The notes beneath the pieces were generated by a model. It was not told the origin of the DNA and ran no database searches. It worked only from the letters and a program-made list of their open reading frames with translations. The position numbers were made by a program, and so were the translations under genes. From Escherichia coli (GTDB lineage Bacteria; Pseudomonadota; Gammaproteobacteria; Enterobacterales; Enterobacteriaceae), in NCBI RefSeq assembly GCF_044324875.1, contig NZ_CP172185.1: a stretch of 64,000 nucleotides of DNA, one strand, 5' to 3'. This document shows positions 9,445-46,463 of the stretch, piece after piece (within the stretch, counting starts at the first letter, position 1; each line of letters opens with the position of its first letter).

Positions 9445-9550
9445 TGCCGGATACGGTGCACCTGTAGGCCTGATAAGACGCATCAAGCGTCGCATCAGGC
9501 ACTATGCTCAAATGCCGGATGCGGCGTAAACGCCTTATCCGGCATACACA
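9445..9550. repeat. REP/BIME cluster
   Basis: GCCGGATACGG...TGTAGGCCTGATAAGACGC...GCGTCGCATCAGGC...GCCGGATGCGGCGTAAACGCCTTATCCGGC units between yjgA and mpl. Confidence 0.85.
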
Positions 9551-15699: not shown

Positions 15700-15805
15700 A
15701 GGCATGATAAGACGCGGTAAGCGTCGCATCAGGCTTCAGTGCACCATCGCCGGATGCGGCGCGAGCGCCTTATCCGGCCTACGAATCGGCATCAGGCATA
15801 GCAAC
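15700..15805. repeat. REP/BIME cluster
   Basis: GCATGATAAGACGCGGTAAGCGTCGCATCAGGC ... GCCGGATGCGGCGCGAGCGCCTTATCCGGCCTACG units between ytfR and ytfQ. Confidence 0.85.
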
Positions 15806-15807
15806 CC

Positions 15808-16764
15808 TCAATACCCCATATTTTTCTTCTTCTCTAACTCTTCTTTTGCGGTATCAGGCAGGTAAAGGGTGGATTTGGTCAGTGTTAGCTTTTCAGGCAT
15901 GGTGCCGTCTTTTTTGTATTTCTCCAGCGCGTCGAAAGCAGGACCTGCCATGTTCGGCGTCAGTTCAACACTGGCGTTCGCTTCGCCATCAATCATCGCT
16001 TTGTAGATATCCGGTACGCCATCAATGGAACCCGTGAGGATATCTTTACCCGGCTTCAGGCCCGCTTCTTTAATTGCCTGAATTGCGCCAATCACCATGT
16101 CATCGTTATGGGCGTAAACCATGCAGATGTTTTTGCCGTTGTTTTCTGCTTTGATAAAGCTCTCCATGACTTCTTTGCCTTTACTGCGGGTGAAGTCACC
16201 TGACTGCGAGCGGATAATTTTGATGTTTGGCGCATTCTTAATGGCTTCGGCAAAGCCTTTCTTACGGTCAATGGCGACGCTGGCCCCAACAGTGCCCTGC
16301 AACTCCACCACGTTGCATGGTTTGCCATTCACTTCTTTTACCAGCCAGTCACCAATCAACTTGCCTTCGAGGATGTTGTCGGCGGTGACAGTGGTCATAT
16401 AGAGAGATTTGTCTTTCACATCGATGGAACGGTCAAGCAAGAAGACCGGGATTTCGGCATCTTTCGCCTCTTTTAATACCGGCTCCCAACCCGTCGCTAC
16501 CACCGGAGCGATAAAGATCGCATCCACCCCTTGCGCGACGAAGGAACGTACCGCTTTAATCTGGTTTTCCTGCTTTTGCTGACCATCGGCAATTTTCAAC
16601 GTAATTCCGCGCTTTTCGGCTTCACTTTTCGCCACATTGGTTTCTGCGGCGCGCCAGCCGGATTCCGATCCGACCTGCGAAAATCCAACGGTTAATGGAG
16701 CGGCCAACGCCATAGACGACATGGCTGCCGAGACTGCAGAGACTACAAGTAAGCGTTTCCACAT
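15808..16764 (-). CDS. ytfQ: Periplasmic sugar (galactofuranose)-binding protein
   Basis: 318-aa ORF with signal peptide MWKRLLVVSAVSAAMSSMALA and periplasmic-binding-protein fold signature. Confidence 0.95.
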   Translation of the reverse strand: MWKRLLVVSAVSAAMSSMALAAPLTVGFSQVGSESGWRAAETNVAKSEAEKRGITLKIADGQQKQENQIKAVRSFVAQGVDAIFIAPVVATGWEPVLKEAKDAEIPVFLLDRSIDVKDKSLYMTTVTADNILEGKLIGDWLVKEVNGKPCNVVELQGTVGASVAIDRKKGFAEAIKNAPNIKIIRSQSGDFTRSKGKEVMESFIKAENNGKNICMVYAHNDDMVIGAIQAIKEAGLKPGKDILTGSIDGVPDIYKAMIDGEANASVELTPNMAGPAFDALEKYKKDGTMPEKLTLTKSTLYLPDTAKEELEKKKNMGY

Positions 16765-16834
16765 AGGGTTGTCCTCGTCGGGGTAATTATTATTGGTGAA
16801 AAGATGTTCGCGAAAAAACTATAGACAATTCGTT

Positions 16835-16855
16835 ATGTAACGGATTGCGTTACAT
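16835..16855. promoter_or_regulatory. Operator-like palindrome ATGTAACG-GATTG-CGTTACAT upstream of ytfQ
   Basis: Perfect 8-bp inverted repeat with 5-bp spacer about 70-90 bp upstream of ytfQ start; binding protein unknown (inference). Confidence 0.35.
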
Positions 16856-17073
16856 CACACTTCAAAAAAGTAAATAAAACGTTAATCACAAGTTTGTAAT
16901 CGCTTTCATCTCACTATGAAAAATGCGGCTACGGTTATGGATTTTCCTGCTCTTTATACCATCTTAAAACTGGCTAAAAAGGAAAATGAAGAAGAAAACA
17001 AGCGAAGACATTCGGCGCGAGTTGGCTATAATACTCGGCACTTGTTTGCCACATATTTTTAAAGGAAACAGAC

Positions 17074-17604
17074 ATGAGCTTACTCAACGTCCCTGCGGGT
17101 AAAGATCTGCCGGAAGACATCTACGTTGTTATTGAGATCCCGGCTAACGCAGATCCGATCAAATACGAAATCGACAAAGAGAGCGGCGCACTGTTCGTTG
17201 ACCGCTTCATGTCCACCGCGATGTTCTATCCGTGCAACTACGGTTACATCAACCACACCCTGTCTCTGGACGGTGACCCGGTTGACGTACTGGTCCCGAC
17301 TCCGTACCCGCTGCAGCCGGGTTCTGTGATCCGTTGCCGTCCTGTTGGCGTTCTGAAAATGACCGACGAAGCCGGTGAAGATGCGAAACTGGTTGCGGTT
17401 CCGCACAGCAAGCTGAGCAAAGAATACGATCACATTAAAGACGTTAACGATCTGCCTGAACTGCTGAAAGCACAGATCGCTCACTTCTTCGAGCACTACA
17501 AAGACCTCGAAAAAGGCAAGTGGGTGAAAGTTGAAGGCTGGGAAAACGCAGAAGCCGCTAAAGCTGAAATCGTTGCCTCCTTCGAGCGCGCAAAGAATAA
17601 ATAA
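17074..17604 (+). CDS. ppa: Inorganic pyrophosphatase
   Basis: 176-aa [48 protein letters not shown]... (family I PPase). Confidence 0.97.
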
Positions 17605-17682
17605 GTTCTTCTAGCGTAATAACCCTGAACGCCGGGCTTCGGTTAGTAGGGGTTTTTTATGCCCGCGATAAATAAACACACC

Positions 17683-18033
17683 TTATTCCACCACCGCCTG
17701 CAAACGTAATAACGCCTCTTCCACCACCTCACCCGCAGCCAGACCAATACGCTTTGCCAGCCGGGCGCGTAGATCCATCATCCGCACCTGATTCACCAGC
17801 ACCACGCCGTGTACATCGCCTTCTTCGCAATGTAAAGGAACGCTAAATCCGGCATAACGGGCAAAATTTCCGCCCTGCGTAATGGGGGCCACCAGCGTCA
17901 TTCCCAGTTGATTAAAGGCTTGAACGGAGAGCACAAGCGCAGGTCGACCAGCACCTTGCTGTTCATGGCCGCTTGCTGGATCAAAGCCAACCAGCACAAT
18001 GTCTCCCCGTTCAAATTCACTTTTCTTTACCAT
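17683..18033 (-). CDS. chpB: Toxin ChpB (MazF-family endoribonuclease)
   Basis: 116-aa ORF MVKKSEFERGDIVLVGFDPASGHEQQGAGRPALVLS... PemK/MazF fold; overlaps upstream antitoxin gene by 7 nt. Confidence 0.93.
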   Translation of the reverse strand: MVKKSEFERGDIVLVGFDPASGHEQQGAGRPALVLSVQAFNQLGMTLVAPITQGGNFARYAGFSVPLHCEEGDVHGVVLVNQVRMMDLRARLAKRIGLAAGEVVEEALLRLQAVVE

Positions 18034-18278
18034 ATTTCGTCACCCGCAGGGGTGGATTTACCCCAGACATCCTGCTCGCTAAGTTCCGTGGCGTTCATGT
18101 CACACTGTGCCAGCAGTTCATCAATCGAGTAGCGCCTGGAGATGGGTGTCAGAATCAGTTGATTGTTGCTCACTTGCGCCTCCACGCTCTGCCCCGGCCG
18201 TAAGTTAAGTTCTTTCATCACAACATTAGGAATGACCATACCTGAACTGTTCCCCCATTTTTTTATGGTAATACGCAT
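18027..18278 (-). CDS. chpS: Antitoxin ChpS (MazE/AbrB-type)
   Basis: 83-aa product MRITIKKWGNSSGMVIPNVVMKELNL... (SpoVT/AbrB swapped-hairpin); ORF track begins 2 codons upstream. Confidence 0.9.
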   Translation of the reverse strand: MRITIKKWGNSSGMVIPNVVMKELNLRPGQSVEAQVSNNQLILTPISRRYSIDELLAQCDMNATELSEQDVWGKSTPAGDEIW

Positions 18279-18489
18279 CTGCACCTCCTTAAGTTATACA
18301 AAGTATAACTCACGGTGCTACAGGAAACGTTTTACCCCTGCGCATTTGTGAACGCCAGCAGAGTTTTTTATGCGTTAACAGATATGGAAAGCGGCTCGGA
18401 GAGAAAAGCAAAAGGTGAGGGAATTACAAAACAGAATGCGAGTCGTCTCGCAAAAAACAACGCCACCCGAAGGTGGCGTATGCGTATGG

Positions 18490-18831
18490 TTACTTATCCC
18501 TGTCTAACCAGTCGCCGCTTTCAATTAGCTTTAATCCATCGACGGGTCGTTGATAAACGTACATCCATGCACTCCCGTACGGCGTCTGAATCAACTGGCG
18601 CGCGTATTCACCGCCCCTGGTGCGCAAGGCATCAAGTTCGGCCAGCGTGGCGTTGTCAATACGATAAACTTCACCGTGTACTGTTCCGTTCCCCGGAACT
18701 GCGCCTGGATAGTGGCCCAGGCTATACAACTGGTAGTTATCGATACTGAAATCGCCCAGTAACTGGGCATTGGTCATCCAGTGACTGTTGCCTTGTTTGT
18801 GGCGTAAACTGCCGTAGACAAATATTCGCAT
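18490..18831 (-). CDS. ytfP: Gamma-glutamylcyclotransferase-like protein YtfP
   Basis: 113-aa ORF MRIFVYGSLRHKQGNSHWM... (GGCT/AIG2 fold, YGSL motif). Confidence 0.92.
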   Translation of the reverse strand: MRIFVYGSLRHKQGNSHWMTNAQLLGDFSIDNYQLYSLGHYPGAVPGNGTVHGEVYRIDNATLAELDALRTRGGEYARQLIQTPYGSAWMYVYQRPVDGLKLIESGDWLDRDK

Positions 18832-18833
18832 TG

Positions 18834-24385
<5,552 letters not shown>

Positions 24386-25332: not shown

Positions 25333-25509
25333 AGTATTTCATTTATCAGCAGTCTGAATTTTAACCCTCTGGCGGCTTTACAGTACCTTACGCTATACTA
25401 GCCACTGAAAATGCCGGTTCACTTTCTTCGAATCGGCTTTCAATGTGTATTTCACACAAATTAATCAACTTCCCCTTCCGAGGATCTGGCCTGAAAGGTC
25501 GGATAAGAT

Positions 25510-29953: not shown

Positions 29954-30142
29954 TTCTCCACCTCGTCTCTGTGAGCGGTGTTAACTTATTGTTTTACTTA
30001 TACCCTATCGTTAATGAATGCGCCAACTGTGATAGTGTCATCATTTTCAAAGCGTAAAATTGTGGCATTCTTCACTGTTCTATAAGTAAGACGTTTATTC
30101 TCCCTTTTCTTTCGTATTCCCGATGATAAAAGGATGTCCCTG

Positions 30143-35377: not shown

Positions 35378-35385
35378 TTTGTTCG

Positions 35386-35418
35386 ATCAACGATCCTGAC
35401 ATGGGCAGGATCGTTGAT
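35386..35418. terminator. Bidirectional hairpin between convergent ytfE and downstream accessory gene (13-bp perfect stem ATCAACGATCCTG / CAGGATCGTTGAT, 7-nt loop)
   Basis: Inverted repeat read directly from sequence 9 bp after ytfE stop and 4 bp before the stop of ORF 35422..36906. Confidence 0.6.
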
Positions 35419-35421
35419 TAT

Positions 35422-36906
35422 TCAGTCATTCAGTGGAAATAATTCATTGTTGTAACTGGTGTACTCACCTTCAACGGTAAGCAAACTGCCGTTTTTATCA
35501 AGATGCGCCGCATCGAGTTGTCGAGTCTCATTACGCCGCTTCGCATCACGTACCAGTCCATCGCCTACGTAATAAATATAGTGGTCATCATGAGCAAAGG
35601 TATCTGATAATTGACCATTGGCGTATTTAAACCACGTCCATTGGCCTTTCAGTTCAAAATGCTCAACCGTGTCTTCATCAATAAAATACGTATAGCGATC
35701 GTCATGTGCTAAATAATTTAATGGTGTGCCATCGGGGCTTTTATACCACTGCCATTGCCCATTAATATCAAAAATAGTCACATCATCGCTCGCAATGAAA
35801 TAAACTTTATCCCCTACAATATTAACACCTTCCTGTAATTCTTGTTGCGGGTCTGGTAAATGAATGACCGACAGCGTTTTTTCGACCGCAGAAACATACT
35901 TCACCAGATAGAGCGAATCTTTATATTGCGCCACATTCTCCGTCAGCGGGCGAAAATATTCCGGATCAACATCAGGAATAGTCGCAACCCGGCAGTCATT
36001 AGCACGCCTGGAAGCATCACGCGTCAACCATGTTACTTTATCCCGCTGCAGGTCAAACGTACTCCGACAATTTTTACCGAACGCATAACGTTTCTCCCCG
36101 TCTTTATCGCGATAAATTAGCAGTGAACCGGCTATCCAGCGCACAATATGAAAGGTATCCGGATCGGCGTTGATGGCATCTCCATTCACAAAGACCTGTG
36201 ATTTAGTCCGCCAGATTGTATCCCAGGGTCCCGGATTACTTTTGCTTTGGCAGCTATTGGGGGAAAATAAAATAATTCGTCGGTCCCAGGATTTAACGCC
36301 AAGAATAGAATACCCTTGCGCACTGCCCAACCAGTGCCCCTGAAAGTAAATATTGTGACGATCTTTCAGCACATCCGCGGAATCACCTGAACCGCCGACT
36401 TGTTGCAACGAATCCATATCGACCTGCTTTTCGTCGCGATTATCATCCGTGCGTTCACCATCAAAATAGAGACTATCTTTATCGGCGGCAAAACGCCCCC
36501 ACGCGCGGAATGTTGCAACATCAACTTTCGGTGTTCCCGGCGGGTTCTGGACTATTTTCCCTGCCCATAAAATATGGCGGCCATCGGTTAACCAGTCGAA
36601 ACGCCAGCCGCCATTTGACCGATAGCCAGAGAAGGGAGCCACCCGCACAAAATCATTATTGATATCATCAGGTGAATCGTATTCACCATCAGTGCCGTTG
36701 GGTACGCGGCGAAGTTGTTTGAACTTTACCTGCGGCAAATGAATATCCGGAAAATCGATACCGTAACCGTCACTATCTTCAACGATATATTTTGTGCCTT
36801 GCCCCCACGGCTGGTAGTAAAACGCAGCATAAGGCACGCCGGAGCAGGCTATCGAAGCGGTTGAAAATAAAGCCAGTGCGAGACAAACGGGTTTAATTGG
36901 CAACAT
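35422..36906 (-). CDS. Secreted hypothetical protein with DKNYY-like repeats (paralog A), 494 aa
   Basis: Long ORF with AGGA RBS 9 nt upstream of ATG 36904-36906; N-terminal signal peptide MLPIKPVCLALALFSTASIAC; repeated D-K-x-x-Y-F/Y motifs (ADKDSLYFDG, KDRHNIYFQG, RDKDGEKRYAFG, YKDSLYLVKY, GDKVYFIASDD) and two C-terminal ~34-aa repeats (GQWQWYK...AHDDRYTYF / GQWTWFK...AHDDHYIYY). Family assignment is by motif eye-match only. Confidence 0.8.
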   Translation of the reverse strand: MLPIKPVCLALALFSTASIACSGVPYAAFYYQPWGQGTKYIVEDSDGYGIDFPDIHLPQVKFKQLRRVPNGTDGEYDSPDDINNDFVRVAPFSGYRSNGGWRFDWLTDGRHILWAGKIVQNPPGTPKVDVATFRAWGRFAADKDSLYFDGERTDDNRDEKQVDMDSLQQVGGSGDSADVLKDRHNIYFQGHWLGSAQGYSILGVKSWDRRIILFSPNSCQSKSNPGPWDTIWRTKSQVFVNGDAINADPDTFHIVRWIAGSLLIYRDKDGEKRYAFGKNCRSTFDLQRDKVTWLTRDASRRANDCRVATIPDVDPEYFRPLTENVAQYKDSLYLVKYVSAVEKTLSVIHLPDPQQELQEGVNIVGDKVYFIASDDVTIFDINGQWQWYKSPDGTPLNYLAHDDRYTYFIDEDTVEHFELKGQWTWFKYANGQLSDTFAHDDHYIYYVGDGLVRDAKRRNETRQLDAAHLDKNGSLLTVEGEYTSYNNELFPLND

Positions 36907-36939
36907 AGCATCATCCTGAAGCTGTTAGCGTGTAAGAGG

Positions 36940-38103
36940 TTATTTAAATAAGGGTTTCAGACCGCTCGGGGGTTGCTTCACCGTAGACCATTCTGCTGAA
37001 ATGGGGTTGTAACGCAGCCATTCAGTTTGCTCGTAGTGTTTTCCGTCGATTGTGGTTAATCCACTAAGTTCGTGACTGTAGAGTTGCCCGTCTGTAGTGA
37101 TATACATGTAGCCAGTTACCATGCTTTCCCTATCTAATAATTCAAAAACATCCTCTGGCTTGGGTGTTATCAGTTCACCTTCACCTAATGCATTGGTTTT
37201 AACCTTATAGAATTGATCTTTGTAATAGCCTACCGACCCGGTAAGTAAGGTAAAATATTCCGGATCAACTCCTTTAAGCGTTTCATAAACACAATCACTG
37301 CCCGCAGGCGTCGCTTCTTGTTTGAGCCTGGACACATTCTTCAAACCGATATTAAATAACGCACAACTGTGACCAATATCTTCCAACGTATAGTCATGCT
37401 CGCCGCTTTTATCGCGATAAACTAACCGTTCGCCAGGCATCCAGCGGATTATCTGAAAGGTTTTGCGATCGGCGGGCAGCGGCTTGCCATTAACAATCAC
37501 CTGCGAATTTGTCATTACAACAAATTGCAGGGATGAATCATGCCGCAGGATTTGAAACCCGTCAGCGCTGCCCAACCAGTGCCCCTTATGCCAAAGACTA
37601 TTTTTATCACGCAGTAAATTCCAGATGTCCGTCTCTTCAAGCGTTGACATATCCACCTGCTTATCACCGCTATTATCATCGGTACGCTGGCCGTCAAAAT
37701 AGATACTGCGTTTATCAGCAGCGAAAGCGCCGAATGCCTTAAAACTGGCGGCATCGACATTAGGTTCACCGGATGGATTTTTCAGGACTTTGCCTGCCCA
37801 AAGGACAGAACGTCCATCGGTGAGCCAGGTATGCTGGCAATCCCCCTCGTCATCACAGTCGAACTTATCGGGATTAAAATCGGAGAGCAGCCGGGTTTCT
37901 TGTTTATTGGCTAAATTGGCAATGCGCCAGAGGCGGGAAAAATTAACGTCTGGTAATTCGGAGAGGATCTCATCTTCTTTTCCCTTCTGTTCGGCAACGT
38001 AAACCGTGCCTTTTTCATGCTGGCGGTAATAAAAATCCGCGCCCCAGGAAGGTGAAATGGAGAGAGGTAATGCGGCGATTAATAACCAACTGCGCTTAAC
38101 CAT
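36940..38103 (-). CDS. Secreted hypothetical protein with DKNYY-like repeats (paralog B), ~387 aa
   Basis: ORF track 36940..38331; I place the start at ATG 38101-38103 where a signal peptide begins (MVKRSWLLIAALPLSISPSWGA), avoiding overlap with cycA; colinear with paralog A (WLTDGRSVLWAGKVLKNPSGEPNVDAASFKAFGAFAADKRSIYFDGQRTDDNSGDKQVDM vs WLTDGRHILWAGKIVQNPPGTPKVDVATFRAWGRFAADKDSLYFDGERTDDNRDEKQVDM). Confidence 0.75.
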   Translation of the reverse strand: MVKRSWLLIAALPLSISPSWGADFYYRQHEKGTVYVAEQKGKEDEILSELPDVNFSRLWRIANLANKQETRLLSDFNPDKFDCDDEGDCQHTWLTDGRSVLWAGKVLKNPSGEPNVDAASFKAFGAFAADKRSIYFDGQRTDDNSGDKQVDMSTLEETDIWNLLRDKNSLWHKGHWLGSADGFQILRHDSSLQFVVMTNSQVIVNGKPLPADRKTFQIIRWMPGERLVYRDKSGEHDYTLEDIGHSCALFNIGLKNVSRLKQEATPAGSDCVYETLKGVDPEYFTLLTGSVGYYKDQFYKVKTNALGEGELITPKPEDVFELLDRESMVTGYMYITTDGQLYSHELSGLTTIDGKHYEQTEWLRYNPISAEWSTVKQPPSGLKPLFK

Positions 38104-38185
38104 AGTGAACTCTGCAACGAGTGGCAAAGATTCACGGTAAGCTCGCGCCTGAGGGCTGTCTATGATGGTAGATATTTTTAAGAAT

Positions 38186-38217
38186 ATATAAAGACAAAGG
38201 CACCCGCAGGTGCCTTT
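38186..38217 (-). terminator. cycA terminator hairpin (9-bp stem AAAGGCACC / GGTGCCTTT)
   Basis: Inverted repeat 20-40 bp downstream of cycA stop on minus strand followed by T-rich tract (TTTGTCTTTATATATTCTT). Confidence 0.55.
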
Positions 38218-38236
38218 CAGAGCTATAAACGCAGCA

Positions 38237-39640
38237 TTACTTCGCCATGCGTTTTTTACCAATAAACAACCAGCCCAGCCCCAGAGCGATAAACCACAGC
38301 GGGGTAACCAGCAGCGCCTGGCGGGTATCATCTTCCAGTGTCAGCAGCACGACCACGAACACAAAGAATGCCATACATACCCAGCACATCAGCTTGCCGA
38401 GCGGCATCTTGTAGATCGACTTATCATGCAGGTGTGGACGCTGTTTGCGGTACACCAGGTACGAGCAAAGGATAATCGTCCAGACGAACATAAACAGAAT
38501 CGCGGAAACGGTTGTAATCATCGTGAACGCGCCAATCACGCTGGGATTCACATACAACATCACCACGCCGCCGAGCAGACAGATACAAGAGAAGGTCAGC
38601 CCTTTCGCGGGTACTGCGCGCTTAGAGAGTTTAGCGAACGCTTTCGGTGCCACACCTTCCTGCGCCAGACCAAACAGCATACGGCTGGTAGAGAAGACAC
38701 CGCTGTTAGCGGAAGACGCCGCAGAGGTCAGCACCACAAAGTTGATCACGCTGGCAGCCGCAGGCAAACCTACCAACACAAACAGCTCAACGAACGGGCT
38801 TTTCTCCGGGACTACCGAACTCCACGGCGTCACGGACATAATCACAATCAACGCGAAGACGTAGAACATAATGATACGGATCGGAATGGAGTTAATCGCG
38901 CGTGGCAGTGATTTCTCTGGATCTTTGGTTTCCGCAGCTGTTGTACCTACCAGCTCAATCCCCACGAAAGCGAAAACCGCTATCTGGAATCCGGCAAAGA
39001 AGCCACTTAAACCTTTCGGGAACCAGCCGCCGTCATTCCACAAATGCGCGAATGACGCTTCTACACCGGTCGGTGACTGAAAGTGCATCGCCACCATGAC
39101 CAGGCCGACGACTATCAGCGACACAATGGCGACGATTTTGATCATCGCAAACCAGAACTCCATCTCACCGAACATTTTCACGGTGGCGAGGTTGAGCGTC
39201 AGCAGCAGCACTATCACCGCCAGCGAGGCGACCCAGTCGGAGAGATCGGGGAACCAGAACTGAGCATAAGCCGTGATCGCCACCACGTCTGCCATACCGG
39301 TTACAACCCAGCAGAACCAGTAAGTCCAGCCGGTGAAATATCCTGCCCACGGCCCGAGTAAATCGGAAGCGAAGTCACTAAAAGATTTGTATTCCAGATT
39401 CGAAAGCAGCAATTCCCCCATTGCCCGCATCACGAAAAAGAGCATAAAACCAATGATCATATAAACAAAAATGATCGACGGCCCGGCAAGGCTAATCGTT
39501 TTGCCGGACCCCATAAACAACCCCGTACCAATGGCACCGCCAATGGCAATAAGCTGAATATGTCGGTTTGTGAGATTGCGCCGTAGCGACTGTTCAGCCG
39601 GAGCCTGATCATCGGCAACGACTTTTACCTGATCTACCAT
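38237..39640 (-). CDS. cycA: D-serine/D-alanine/glycine:H+ symporter (APC family)
   Basis: 467-aa ORF MVDQVKVVADDQAPAEQSLRRNLTNRHIQLIAIGGAIGTGLFMGSG... amino-acid permease signature. Confidence 0.96.
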   Translation of the reverse strand: MVDQVKVVADDQAPAEQSLRRNLTNRHIQLIAIGGAIGTGLFMGSGKTISLAGPSIIFVYMIIGFMLFFVMRAMGELLLSNLEYKSFSDFASDLLGPWAGYFTGWTYWFCWVVTGMADVVAITAYAQFWFPDLSDWVASLAVIVLLLTLNLATVKMFGEMEFWFAMIKIVAIVSLIVVGLVMVAMHFQSPTGVEASFAHLWNDGGWFPKGLSGFFAGFQIAVFAFVGIELVGTTAAETKDPEKSLPRAINSIPIRIIMFYVFALIVIMSVTPWSSVVPEKSPFVELFVLVGLPAAASVINFVVLTSAASSANSGVFSTSRMLFGLAQEGVAPKAFAKLSKRAVPAKGLTFSCICLLGGVVMLYVNPSVIGAFTMITTVSAILFMFVWTIILCSYLVYRKQRPHLHDKSIYKMPLGKLMCWVCMAFFVFVVVLLTLEDDTRQALLVTPLWFIALGLGWLFIGKKRMAK

Positions 39641-41499: not shown

Positions 41500-41720
41500 G
41501 AAACCATACTGATATGTTGACATCCTCCACGCCCTGAAGGACGTGGATCCCTGCTACGTTCAGGCTGTCGCCTAAATCATTTCGGGGGGTTCCTGCTTCA
41601 ACGAGCGGCCTGACTGCACCATCTCTCCACAGGCAAGAACGGCGTGCCCCGCCGCTAAAATGTTACGAGCGCCATTTACATCGGCGTTCGCTGTATATCC
41701 ACATGCCTGGCATCTGAATT
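41500..41720 (-). ncRNA. Predicted omega (re)RNA of TnpB, overlapping tnpB 3' end and right end of the IS; putative guide = flank just beyond RE (about 41501-41516)
   Basis: Inference from established TnpB biology (guide RNA derived from tnpB 3' end/RE); presence of RE hairpin at 41527-41546. No transcript evidence. Confidence 0.35.
41527..41546. repeat. IS right-end subterminal hairpin
   Basis: 5-bp + 2-bp stem with single mismatch and TGAA tetraloop; near-identical copy at other end of element. Confidence 0.7.
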
Positions 41721-42768
41721 TACTTTGTGACAGGCGATTTTCTTTCGCTGTATGACCACAGCACGCGCAACGCTGGCTTGTGTACGCTGGCGGAACAGCA
41801 AGCACCTGACCGCCACGCCAGAGCTGCTTGTACTCAAGCTGGCGGCGCATTTCATACCAGCCCTGATCCAGTATCGAACGGTTTAAACCTGATTTTGCCC
41901 GGACATTGCGCCCCGGCTGGCTGACCGTACCCGCTGCTGACTTTGACATGTTGCTGACCTTCAAATCCTCAATGACTATCATTGCGTGGTTTTTGCTGAC
42001 GGTCGTTGTGACTTTGTGAAGGTAGTCCCTGCGGATATTTGCGATACAGGAATGCAGTCGCTGTATTTTGCGTTTCTGCTTCTGCCAGTTATTGCTGAAT
42101 TTGACCTTGCGGCTTAACTGTCGCTGAAGTCTCGCCAGCTTCTTCTGGTTTTTCTGAAAACTGTTTACAGGCTCAAAGACTGTGCCATCTGACAGCGTGG
42201 CGAGTTTAGCCACGCCAGCATCCAGCCCGACCATTGATGCTGAAGGGTGAACCGGAGTTGATACTTCATTTTCAGTCTGAATACTGATGTACCACTTACC
42301 GCAGGACTGGCTGACAGTGACATTTTTCACAACACCCGTGACCTGACGGCTATTCCGGTAGCGCATCCAGCCAAGTTTCGGCAGAAAAATACGGCTGTTT
42401 TCCTGATCGAGCTTAACGCCCTGCGGGTAGCGGAATGCATCATTCTGTCCCCGCTTTTTGAATCGGGGAAAAGCAGCCCGCTTCTGGAAGAAGTTTTTGT
42501 AAGCCCGCTCAAGGTCTTTCAGTGACTGTTGCAATGGCTGTGAGGGCGAATCTTTAAGCCATTGCGTTTCAGTGGCGTTTTTCCACTCAACCAGCCAGGA
42601 AGCCATTTTCCCGTAAGGGATGTATTTATTACCGGCCTCATGATTCTCATTCTGACGTGCCAGAGCACGATTGAAAACGAAACGACATGCGCCTGCGAAG
42701 CGCCTCATTTCACGCTCCTGTTGACCACCGGGTCTTAACTGGAATTTAAATGCCTGTAGTCGTTTCAC
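41572..42768 (-). CDS. tnpB: TnpB (IS605 OrfB) RNA-guided endonuclease, apparently intact
   Basis: 398-aa [39 protein letters not shown]...; RuvC-I D (MVGLDAGV), RuvC-II E (MIVIEDLKV), Zn finger CACCGH...CQACG and RuvC-III D ([10 protein letters not shown]) all present. Confidence 0.92.
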
Positions 42769-42775
42769 AGGCCAA

Positions 42776-43390
42776 ATGATACTTTGGTCTGTGAGAAAAG
42801 AAACCGATATCCGGCGTGGAAGGCATTGTGTTTTCCTGATGCATGTTCACCAGGTCTTTGTCACCAAATACCGACGTCAGATTTTTGACCATGACGCGAC
42901 AGAAAAACTACGCACTTACTTTTCAAATGTATGTGCTGATTTTGAAGCTGAACTGGTTGAAATGGATGGCGAACCAGATCACGTCCATTTGTTAATTAAC
43001 TATCCTCCCAAACTGGCGATATCCAGTCTGGTAAACAGCCTCAAAGGCGTATCGGGTAGGTTACTGCGACGAGATCGACCAGATATTGCAGTCAGGTATT
43101 ACTACAAAGGCGTTTTGTGGAGTCCTGGCTATTTTGCCAGTAGCTGCGGAGGTGCGCCAATATCCGTCATCCGCCAATACATTGAACAACAGCAAACACC
43201 TGATCAGGTGGAAAACCGCGCCTTATATCCCCGCCCTGAAGGACGGGGTTTTACGGCGCACCGGATAAACCAGGCCAAGCGTATGCTGGTTGATCAAATA
43301 ATATCCCCCAAGCGCAGCAATATTAATATTCACCTGCAATGGGTCGATATCTGGCTTAAAAATATTGTGTTTCCTCCCTTCATCCAATAA
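42776..43390 (+). CDS. tnpA: IS200-type Y1 (HuH) transposase TnpA, ORF reading through the IS left end into flanking DNA
   Basis: ORF contains KYRRQIF, HuH motif HVHLLI and catalytic-Tyr region [11 protein letters not shown]...QYIEQQ; typical TnpA ends soon after, but here no stop occurs until 43388-43390, beyond the end hairpin (which encodes [10 protein letters not shown]). Confidence 0.8.
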
Positions 43391-45741: not shown

Positions 45742-46155
<414 letters not shown>

Positions 46156-46463
46156 TTATTCAGCCTCCTGTCTGGGTCAGCCGAATCCCGGGGAGGCAAG
46201 GAACGTGTTAAAGGTCGGCTGAAAAATGACGCGTTATAGTACTGACATACCCCGCTAAACTCAAGGCCAGCCGACAAATAAATCTCATCTTTCACCAAAT
46301 CGTACTAACACGCTGATTTGAAGTTCATCACACTTCATCATGGTGTTTTTTTGAACAACTGCATCAGAAATGGTCACCATCAACTTCTTTATCATTGATT
46401 AAAATTAAATCAGAAGATCATCACAGAGGAGAGCACACAAAGTCAGCCGTTGAGGAGGTATCT

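What the first reader, a model, noticed from the sequence alone, without database searches (positions are those of the whole stretch)
17683..18278. chpS-chpB type II toxin-antitoxin module next to ppa
An 83-aa AbrB-type antitoxin gene overlaps by 7 nt a 116-aa MazF-family endoribonuclease toxin gene. It is a known chromosomal toxin-antitoxin pair and both genes appear intact here. Worth noting as the only defence or addiction-type module in the window besides the TnpB element.
Basis: established knowledge. Interest (0 to 1): 0.3.

Follow-up and report, generated by a model that had tools for sequence, protein, structure and literature searches.

The report
Known chpS-chpB toxin-antitoxin pair, intact
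This is the well-studied E. coli chpS-chpB toxin-antitoxin gene pair, complete and in its usual chromosomal place next to ppa, so the finding is correct but ordinary.

Summary
chpB lies at 17683-18033 (minus strand, 116 aa) and chpS at 18027-18278 (minus strand, 83 aa). They overlap by 7 nt (ATGGTAA). chpB's stop is 78 nt from the stop of ppa, which converges on it.

Both proteins pass NCBI's curated ChpB and ChpS equivalog models by wide margins. They are 98% and 93% identical to E. coli K-12 b4225 and b4224. Gene order is the K-12 order (ytfQ, ppa, chpB, chpS, ytfP, tamB). Both reading frames are open. The Arg and Thr that align with MazF Arg29 and Thr52 are present (ChpB R30, T52). The Shine-Dalgarno site and the whole upstream region are essentially identical to K-12.

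The best-supported mechanism is carried over from K-12 experiments. ChpB is a ribosome-independent endoribonuclease that cuts at ACY. ChpS, an AbrB/MazE-type antitoxin, neutralises it. ChpB arrests growth but does not kill.

Context I found:
- The pair is accessory. It is present in 3097 of 5426 complete E. coli genomes.
- 2322 other genomes carry the same decayed chpB remnant at this spot.
- A perfect palindrome sits just upstream of the Shine-Dalgarno site, and a perfect CRP-S core lies 159 nt upstream of chpS.

Verdict: already known, low interest.

The parts
18027..18278 (-). chpS (chpBI) antitoxin gene, 83 aa. The N-terminal part is an AbrB/MazE/SpoVT-type DNA-binding domain. The C-terminal tail (residues 65-83) is identical to K-12.
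   Evidence: PF04014, 45.9 bits; NF008463, 190.6 bits, cutoff 101; 93% identical to b4224.
17683..18033 (-). chpB (chpBK) toxin gene, 116 aa, a MazF/PemK-family endoribonuclease.
   Evidence: PF02452, 88.7 bits; NF007320, 226.8 bits, cutoff 129; 98% identical to b4225; Kid 1m1f, E=6e-21; R30 and T52 conserved; exact allele seen on at least 1000 public contigs.
18027..18033 (-). 7-nt overlap (ATGGTAA) of the chpS stop codon and the chpB start codon. It is consistent with translational coupling. A GGTGA Shine-Dalgarno-like motif lies 6 nt upstream of the chpB ATG.
   Evidence: Read directly from the sequence. The overlap is the same in K-12.
18284..18290 (-). Shine-Dalgarno sequence AAGGAGG, 5 nt upstream of the chpS ATG.
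   Evidence: Read from the sequence. Invariant in five diverse chpSB-positive genomes.
18293..18309 (.). Perfect palindrome GTTATAC-N3-GTATAAC directly upstream of the Shine-Dalgarno site. It overlaps two -10-like hexamers (TATACT, TATAAC). It is a candidate ChpS/ChpS-ChpB operator; this is inferred, not shown.
   Evidence: inverted repeat I1; the only match in 64 kb even when 2 mismatches are allowed, 0.11 expected; invariant in five genomes.
18437..18452 (.). Perfect CRP-S core TGCGA-N6-TCGCA, 159 nt upstream of the chpS ATG. It is a candidate Sxy/CRP site. The terminator scan also scores it as a weak hairpin.
   Evidence: the only match in 64 kb, 0.15 expected; identical in K-12 and three other genomes; a review reports that sxy overexpression induces chpSB; terminator-like hit.
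18460..18479 (-). GC-rich hairpin followed by a T-run after ytfP. It is the likely ytfP terminator and marks the upstream boundary of the chpSB transcription unit.
   Evidence: 8-bp stem, 6 GC pairs, tail TGTTTTTTGC. (inverted repeat I3).
17605..17682 (.). 78-nt convergent spacer between the chpB stop and the ppa stop. No convincing minus-strand terminator for chpB was found.
   Evidence: the minus-strand fold is no better than shuffles (z = +1.25); no terminator hit here.

Best explanation
This is an intact ortholog of the E. coli K-12 chpS-chpB (chpBI-chpBK) type II toxin-antitoxin operon, at its native chromosomal position. The two genes are transcribed together on the minus strand and probably translated in a coupled way. 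ChpB is a MazF/PemK-fold, ribosome-independent endoribonuclease. In K-12 it cuts single-stranded RNA 5' or 3' of the A in ACY (Y = U, A or G). It lowers protein synthesis to about 40% and arrests growth without killing. ChpS binds ChpB through its C-terminal tail and neutralises it. Its N-terminal AbrB/MazE-type domain most likely represses the operon by binding the palindrome next to the ribosome-binding site. Shown here: identity, intactness, synteny, and conservation of the key residues and of the upstream region. Inferred from K-12 work or by analogy with MazEF and Kis-Kid: the cleavage specificity, neutralisation, autoregulation through the palindrome, and release of toxin when the antitoxin is degraded or under-produced.
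For: Family and equivalog models are passed with large margins. ChpB is 98% and ChpS 93% identical to K-12, with no gaps. The DNA is collinear with K-12 and the Shine-Dalgarno site and operator region are identical. Gene order ytfQ-ppa-chpB-chpS-ytfP-tamB is identical to K-12 and to strain TUM14771. RefSeq annotates the same genes in 3097 genomes. ChpB R30 and T52 align with MazF R29 and T52, and ChpB H23 aligns with Kid H17. R89, which differs from K-12 H89, is the common state in O157 and other strains; MazF has Arg and Kid has Lys at this position. The exact ChpB sequence is on at least 1000 public contigs and the exact ChpS sequence on 132. Literature: ACY cleavage, about 40% residual protein synthesis, growth arrest rather than death, and neutralisation by ChpBI; ribosome-independent class.
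Against: Nothing was assayed for this allele. ChpS carries six substitutions relative to K-12, four of them in the DNA-binding domain, and ChpB carries D101G; their effects are unknown. The residues aligned with Kid's proposed catalytic R73 and D75 are L79 and N81 in ChpB. This is equally true of the active K-12 protein, so it is no evidence of loss. No sigma-70 promoter passed the consensus scan upstream of chpS. Operator binding at the palindrome is only inferred. According to a review, Lon overproduction did not detectably activate chpB in K-12, so the natural trigger is unresolved.
Confidence: 0.93

Rival explanations
1. The pair looks intact but is functionally silent or on its way to decay. 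It would be a genomic passenger kept only by its own addictive property, with no host-level role.
For: The module is accessory: present in 3097 of 5426 complete genomes. 2322 others carry one and the same decayed chpB remnant with an in-frame stop and no chpS. The locus can instead hold esiB. The three states were already published. Against K-12, chpS shows 6 non-synonymous and 2 synonymous codon changes. Multi-TA deletion strains are routinely used as viable hosts.
Against: Both frames are open and the key residues are kept. The 212-nt upstream region is about 99% identical across five diverse genomes, with the palindrome and CRP-S core invariant. ChpB is 98-100% identical across lineages. 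That pattern indicates purifying selection where the module is present.
Confidence: 0.05
2. Its main role is anti-phage defence by abortive infection: ChpB would be released when phage shuts off host expression, as has been proposed for mazEF and other toxin-antitoxin pairs.
For: Reviews list phage-related roles for MazF and for other TA systems. The patchy presence or absence resembles that of defence genes.
Against: Neither protein hits any PADLOC model. The module sits alone between housekeeping genes, not in a defence island. None of the papers read here reports a phage phenotype for chpSB, and ChpB is bacteriostatic and only partly blocks translation.
Confidence: 0.04
3. The operon is chiefly a member of the Sxy/CRP-S (competence-type) regulon. 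It would be switched on from an upstream promoter by CRP plus Sxy, not mainly controlled by antitoxin turnover. This adds to the best explanation and does not replace it.
For: A perfect TGCGA-N6-TCGCA core lies at 18437-18452. It is the only one in the 64-kb window (0.15 expected). It sits in the ytfP-chpS intergenic region and is invariant in five genomes. A 2025 review states that sxy overexpression up-regulates chpSB, citing Sinha et al. 2009.
Against: One match with 0.15 expected is suggestive, not proof; 14 of 100 shuffles gave at least one match somewhere in the window. By eye I found no -10 element at class I or class II spacing from the site. The palindrome also scores as a terminator-like hairpin after ytfP. 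The primary paper was not available, so I could not check whether this site is already mapped.
Confidence: 0.15

Closest known systems
E. coli K-12 chpS-chpB (chpBI-chpBK, b4224-b4225)
   Same: Same locus, gene order and orientation, the same 7-nt overlap, and the same Shine-Dalgarno site, palindrome and upstream region. ChpB is 114/116 identical and ChpS 77/83.
   Different: ChpB carries R89 in place of K-12's H89 (R is the common E. coli state) and G101 in place of D101. ChpS differs at positions 7, 12, 19, 27, 52 and 64 (K-12 to window: R7K, A12S, I19V, Q27R, L52I, A64T). About 17% of chpSB-positive genomes (535 of 3099) carry this haplotype at 99% identity or more.
E. coli mazE-mazF (chpA)
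   Same: Same families (PF04014 and PF02452), the same antitoxin-then-toxin operon layout, and the same Arg/Thr pair (MazF R29 and T52 align with ChpB R30 and T52). The antitoxins share the W8-G-N-S motif and the C-terminal Trp.
   Different: Identity is only 37% for the toxin and 33% for the antitoxin. MazF cuts at ACA and blocks translation completely. ChpBK cuts at the looser ACY motif and inhibits only partly. The chromosomal location is different (next to relA).
Plasmid R1/R100 kis-kid (pemI-pemK)
   Same: Kid is the closest solved structure (1m1f, E=6e-21, 45% identity). chpB was originally named as a chromosomal homologue of pem. Kid H17 is kept as ChpB H23.
   Different: Kis-Kid is plasmid-borne and maintains the plasmid, and it recognises UAH. 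Kid R73 and D75 align with L79 and N81 in ChpB.

Membership tests
MazF/PemK toxin family (Pfam PF02452) | Full-length match to the family model above the curated cutoff | tested here: met
   88.7 bits against a cutoff of 23.1; residues 8-114 cover profile positions 1-108 of 109.
MazF/PemK toxin family (Pfam PF02452) | Conserved Arg and Thr aligned with MazF Arg29 and Thr52 (catalytic roles taken from established MazF literature) | tested here: met
   R30 and T52 are invariant columns in the alignment of the window ChpB, K-12 ChpB, K-12 MazF and Kid.
MazF/PemK toxin family (Pfam PF02452) | Kid-type residues H17, R73 and D75 (the published Kid model, recalled from memory) | tested here: inconclusive
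   H17 aligns with H23 and is kept. R73 and D75 align with L79 and N81. The experimentally active K-12 ChpB has the same residues, so they do not define ChpB.
MazF/PemK toxin family (Pfam PF02452) | Sequence-specific, ribosome-independent RNA cleavage | not testable with these tools
   Known for K-12 ChpBK, which cuts at ACY. This allele was not assayed.
ChpB equivalog (NCBIfam NF007320) | Score above the equivalog cutoff over the full length, plus orthologous position | tested here: met
   226.8 bits against a cutoff of 129, residues 1-116 of 116. 98% identical to b4225. Same flanking genes.
ChpS equivalog (NCBIfam NF008463) / AbrB-MazE-SpoVT antitoxins (PF04014) | Score above the equivalog cutoff, and an N-terminal swapped-hairpin DNA-binding domain | tested here: met
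   190.6 bits against a cutoff of 101, residues 1-83 of 83. PF04014 at 45.9 bits against a cutoff of 24.7, residues 5-49. PDB relatives are MazE 1ub4 and 1mvf and the antitoxin chain of 7d2n.
ChpS equivalog (NCBIfam NF008463) / AbrB-MazE-SpoVT antitoxins (PF04014) | C-terminal toxin-binding tail conserved | tested here: met
   Residues 65-83 are identical to K-12 and to four other strains. W72, G73, P77, E81 and W83 are invariant with MazE. Binding itself was not tested.
Type II toxin-antitoxin operon | A small antitoxin gene directly upstream of, and overlapping or abutting, a small toxin gene on the same strand | tested here: met
   83-aa and 116-aa genes, 7-nt overlap, one Shine-Dalgarno site ahead of chpS.
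Type II toxin-antitoxin operon | Autorepression through an operator palindrome in the promoter | tested here: inconclusive
   A perfect 7-3-7 palindrome lies at 18293-18309. It is unique in the window and invariant in five genomes. Binding was not tested and no promoter passed the consensus scan.
Type II toxin-antitoxin operon | A labile antitoxin degraded by cellular proteases | not testable with these tools
   The literature is unsettled for ChpS.
Known anti-phage defence systems (PADLOC-DB v2) | A match to any defence-system protein model | tested here: not met
   No families for ChpB or ChpS at E <= 0.01.

The most novel reading that the evidence does not exclude
The minority chpSB haplotype in this window could be a functionally shifted variant. 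It has four ChpS substitutions clustered in the DNA-binding domain, plus L52I and A64T in ChpS, and G101 in ChpB. Operator affinity or toxin-antitoxin pairing could be altered. Linked to this, the intact and remnant haplotypes split E. coli almost perfectly (3097 against 2322 of 5426 genomes) and have unusually diverged flanks (84-93% identity). That could reflect a long-lived balanced polymorphism and not simple loss. A further untested possibility is control by Sxy/CRP through the perfect CRP-S core.
Probability: 0.07. Interest if true: 0.3.

Novelty: already known. Interest (0 to 1): 0.06.

Why it matters
It matters little beyond correct annotation. chpSB has been known since 1993 and its toxin was characterised biochemically in 2005. 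The useful results here are negative or contextual:
- The module in this window is complete and carries no inactivating change.
- It is an accessory, not core, E. coli gene pair, present in 57% of complete genomes.
- Genomes usually scored as lacking it in fact carry a common decayed chpB fragment. This is a clean example of toxin-antitoxin decay and could serve as a lineage marker.
- The CRP-S core upstream gives a concrete, testable site for the reported Sxy induction.

Tried and rejected
1. Antisense or small RNA in the locus: an Rfam scan of 16700-19000 at E <= 1 found nothing. The single plus-strand promoter-like hit inside chpB is no more than chance (1 found, 0.9 expected). The plus-strand ORFs of 74 and 76 aa across the genes are ordinary antisense artefacts.
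2. A minus-strand terminator for chpB in the spacer to ppa: the fold is no better than shuffles (z = +1.25).
3. Enrichment or depletion of the toxin's own ACY motif in the operon: chpS has 15 sites against 11.6 in synonymous shuffles (P = 0.019). For the K-12 allele P = 0.08, and chpB shows no signal. I judged this not significant after six tests. An earlier run of the script timed out.
4. The GTG at 18284 as the chpS start (85 aa): rejected, because it lies within or next to the Shine-Dalgarno site and K-12 uses the ATG.
5. Loss of the active site, suggested by Kid R73 and D75 aligning with L79 and N81: rejected as evidence of inactivity, because the active K-12 protein is identical at those positions.
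6. Strain HH45 as an evolutionary intermediate between the intact gene and the remnant: set aside. It is a single genome with an odd G-rich stretch that looks like an assembly artefact.
7. Reading Masuda 1993 and Sinha 2009 for the mapped promoter and CRP-S site: neither paper is held.
8. A PADLOC defence-model match: none.

Full report
**Observation**

The ORF list and the raw sequence show a 116-aa ORF at 17683-18033 on the minus strand. They also show an ORF ending at 18027 whose ATG at 18278 gives 83 aa. The two overlap by 7 nt (18027-18033): the TAA stop of the upstream gene overlaps the ATG GTA of the downstream one. The mechanical list starts the upstream ORF at GTG 18284. That codon lies in the AAGGAGGTG Shine-Dalgarno region, and the K-12 annotation uses the ATG. 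ppa (17074-17604, plus strand) converges on the toxin gene with a 78-nt spacer.

**Identity**

- The 116-aa protein matches Pfam PemK_toxin (PF02452) over its whole length (E=3.7e-25).
- The 83-aa protein matches MazE_antitoxin (PF04014) (E=5.5e-12).
- Against NCBI's naming models they score 226.8 bits on the ChpB equivalog (cutoff 129) and 190.6 bits on the ChpS equivalog (cutoff 101). The MazF and MazE models fall far below their cutoffs.
- BLASTP against K-12 MG1655 b4225 and b4224 gives 114/116 and 77/83 identities with no gaps.
- The DNA aligns collinearly with K-12 over 900 nt.
- Gene order ytfQ, ppa, chpB, chpS, ytfP, tamB is the same as in K-12 and in the closest complete genome, TUM14771.
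- The whole window is ordinary E. coli chromosome from treR to rnr.

**Intactness**

There is no frameshift or premature stop.

In a four-way alignment with K-12 ChpB, K-12 MazF and Kid, ChpB R30 and T52 are invariant and align with MazF R29 and T52. Their catalytic role is established knowledge of MazF and was not tested here. ChpB H23 aligns with Kid H17. Kid R73 and D75 align with L79 and N81. The experimentally active K-12 protein has the same residues, so this is a family difference, not a loss.

Of the two ChpB differences from K-12:
- R89 is the common E. coli state (O157, strain 130119, TUM14771). It matches the Arg or Lys of MazF and Kid, so K-12's H89 is the unusual one.
- G101 is specific to the window's haplotype.

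ChpS differs from K-12 at six positions, four of them in codons 7-27 of the DNA-binding domain. Its C-terminal tail (residues 65-83) is identical. The exact ChpB sequence occurs on at least 1000 public contigs and the exact ChpS sequence on 132. Both are therefore circulating alleles, not sequencing errors.

**Regulatory anatomy (minus strand, 5' to 3')**

1. A strong hairpin plus T-run at 18479-18460 follows ytfP and is the likely ytfP terminator.
2. A perfect CRP-S core, TGCGA-N6-TCGCA, lies at 18437-18452. It is the only one in the window, with 0.15 expected by chance.
3. A perfect palindrome, GTTATAC-TTT-GTATAAC, lies at 18309-18293. It is unique in the window even when two mismatches are allowed, with 0.11 expected. 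It overlaps two -10-like hexamers.
4. The AAGGAGG Shine-Dalgarno site follows directly, 5 nt before the ATG.

The 212-nt upstream region is about 99% identical in five diverse chpSB-positive genomes, and both palindromes are invariant.

No promoter passed the consensus scan. Assigning the proximal palindrome as the ChpS operator is an inference by analogy with MazE and Kis.

A 2025 review reports that sxy overexpression up-regulates chpSB, citing Sinha et al. 2009. The CRP-S core is a plausible site for that effect. I could not read the primary paper, and I saw no -10 element at standard activation spacing, so this remains a lead only.

**Mechanism**

From the literature read here:
- It lowers protein synthesis to about 40% instead of abolishing it.
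- It arrests growth without killing, and ChpBI neutralises it.
- It belongs to the ribosome-independent class, with MazF and HicA.
- The trigger is unsettled. According to a review, Lon overproduction activated only yefM-yoeB among five TA systems.

Given 98% and 93% identity and a conserved regulatory region, the same mechanism is by far the most likely here.

**Population context**

- The gene pair is present at 95% identity or more in 3097 of 5426 complete E. coli genomes, on the chromosome in all but three cases.
- The flanking ppa and ytfP genes are present in 5425 genomes.
- In a chpSB-negative genome (MCJCHV-1) the spot is not empty. It holds the last ~10 nt of chpB joined to a 127-nt piece that is 72% identical to chpB codons ~6-48 (E=1e-14). 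That piece has an in-frame stop. The sequence then resumes upstream of the operator; chpS, the Shine-Dalgarno site and the palindrome are gone.
- This remnant is found in 2322 genomes. Together, 3097 + 2322 account for 5419 of 5426 genomes.
- In Nissle-type B2 strains esiB lies between ppa and ytfP, with the remnant on its ppa side; esiB itself is found in 188 genomes.
- The three states (chpBS, esiB, neither) were published in 2013 with similar proportions. That paper calls the third state 'absent' and does not mention a remnant in the passages I read.
- Identity between the two haplotypes is 84-93% in the intergenic flanks and about 96% across the matched ppa-ytfP stretch.

**Other tests**

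- There is no Rfam family in or around the locus.
- There is no PADLOC defence model hit.
- There is no convincing chpB terminator.
- There is only a weak, non-significant excess of ACY sites in chpS.

**Verdict**

This is the known chpSB module, intact. Novelty: already known. Interest is low (0.06). The most novel reading still open is a functionally shifted minority haplotype, or a maintained intact/remnant polymorphism, or CRP-S control. I put it at about 7% probability and of modest interest.

Noticed in passing
window 17605-18330, compared with L004:1022-1420 (MCJCHV-1) and L005 (Nissle): E. coli genomes scored as lacking chpSB carry a common remnant at this spot: the last ~10 nt of chpB plus 127 nt that are 72% identical to chpB codons ~6-48, with an in-frame stop. 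chpS, the Shine-Dalgarno site and the operator are deleted. The remnant is in 2322 of 5426 genomes and intact chpSB in 3097. esiB lies between ppa and ytfP, next to the remnant, in Nissle; it is present in 188 genomes. Intergenic flanks of the two haplotypes are only 84-93% identical.
   Followed up: partly
window 18437-18452: A perfect CRP-S core, TGCGA-N6-TCGCA, lies in the ytfP-chpS intergenic region. It is the only one in 64 kb (0.15 expected) and is invariant in five genomes. It fits the reported Sxy induction of chpSB. The promoter geometry is unresolved, and I could not check whether the site is already mapped.
   Followed up: partly
window 35378-38250: A 2.9-kb insertion relative to strain TUM14771 lies between ytfE and cycA. 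It carries two paralogous ORFs (35422-36906 and 36940-38331, minus strand) with weak DKNYY-family (PF13644) matches and no PADLOC hit. Function is unknown.
   Followed up: partly
window 41572-43390: An IS200/IS605-type element: a TnpB ORF at 41572-42768 (-) and an adjacent tnpA-like ORF at 42776-43390 (+). In the closest genome the tnpA is annotated as truncated. It is a transposon, not a defence or addiction module.
   Followed up: no
window 18200-18260 (chpS codons 7-27): Differences from K-12 cluster in a roughly 60-nt patch of chpS: seven of the nine base differences in chpS fall there, giving four amino-acid changes in the DNA-binding domain. The operator and the rest of the locus are nearly identical. 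This could be a recombination patch or relaxed or diversifying selection on the antitoxin.
   Followed up: partly
window 30020-30142, 46135-46219, 9467-9544, 15701-15779, 25391-25448: Rfam hits above the gathering score elsewhere in the window: ES239 sRNA, RpsF leader, two naRNA4 (REP-derived) copies and STnc450. None is near chpSB.
   Followed up: no
L008 (strain HH45) 1424-1955: One genome has a hybrid remnant whose chpB fragment is 93% identical to the intact gene. It is followed by an odd G-rich stretch of about 130 nt, probably an assembly artefact and not a true intermediate.
   Followed up: partly
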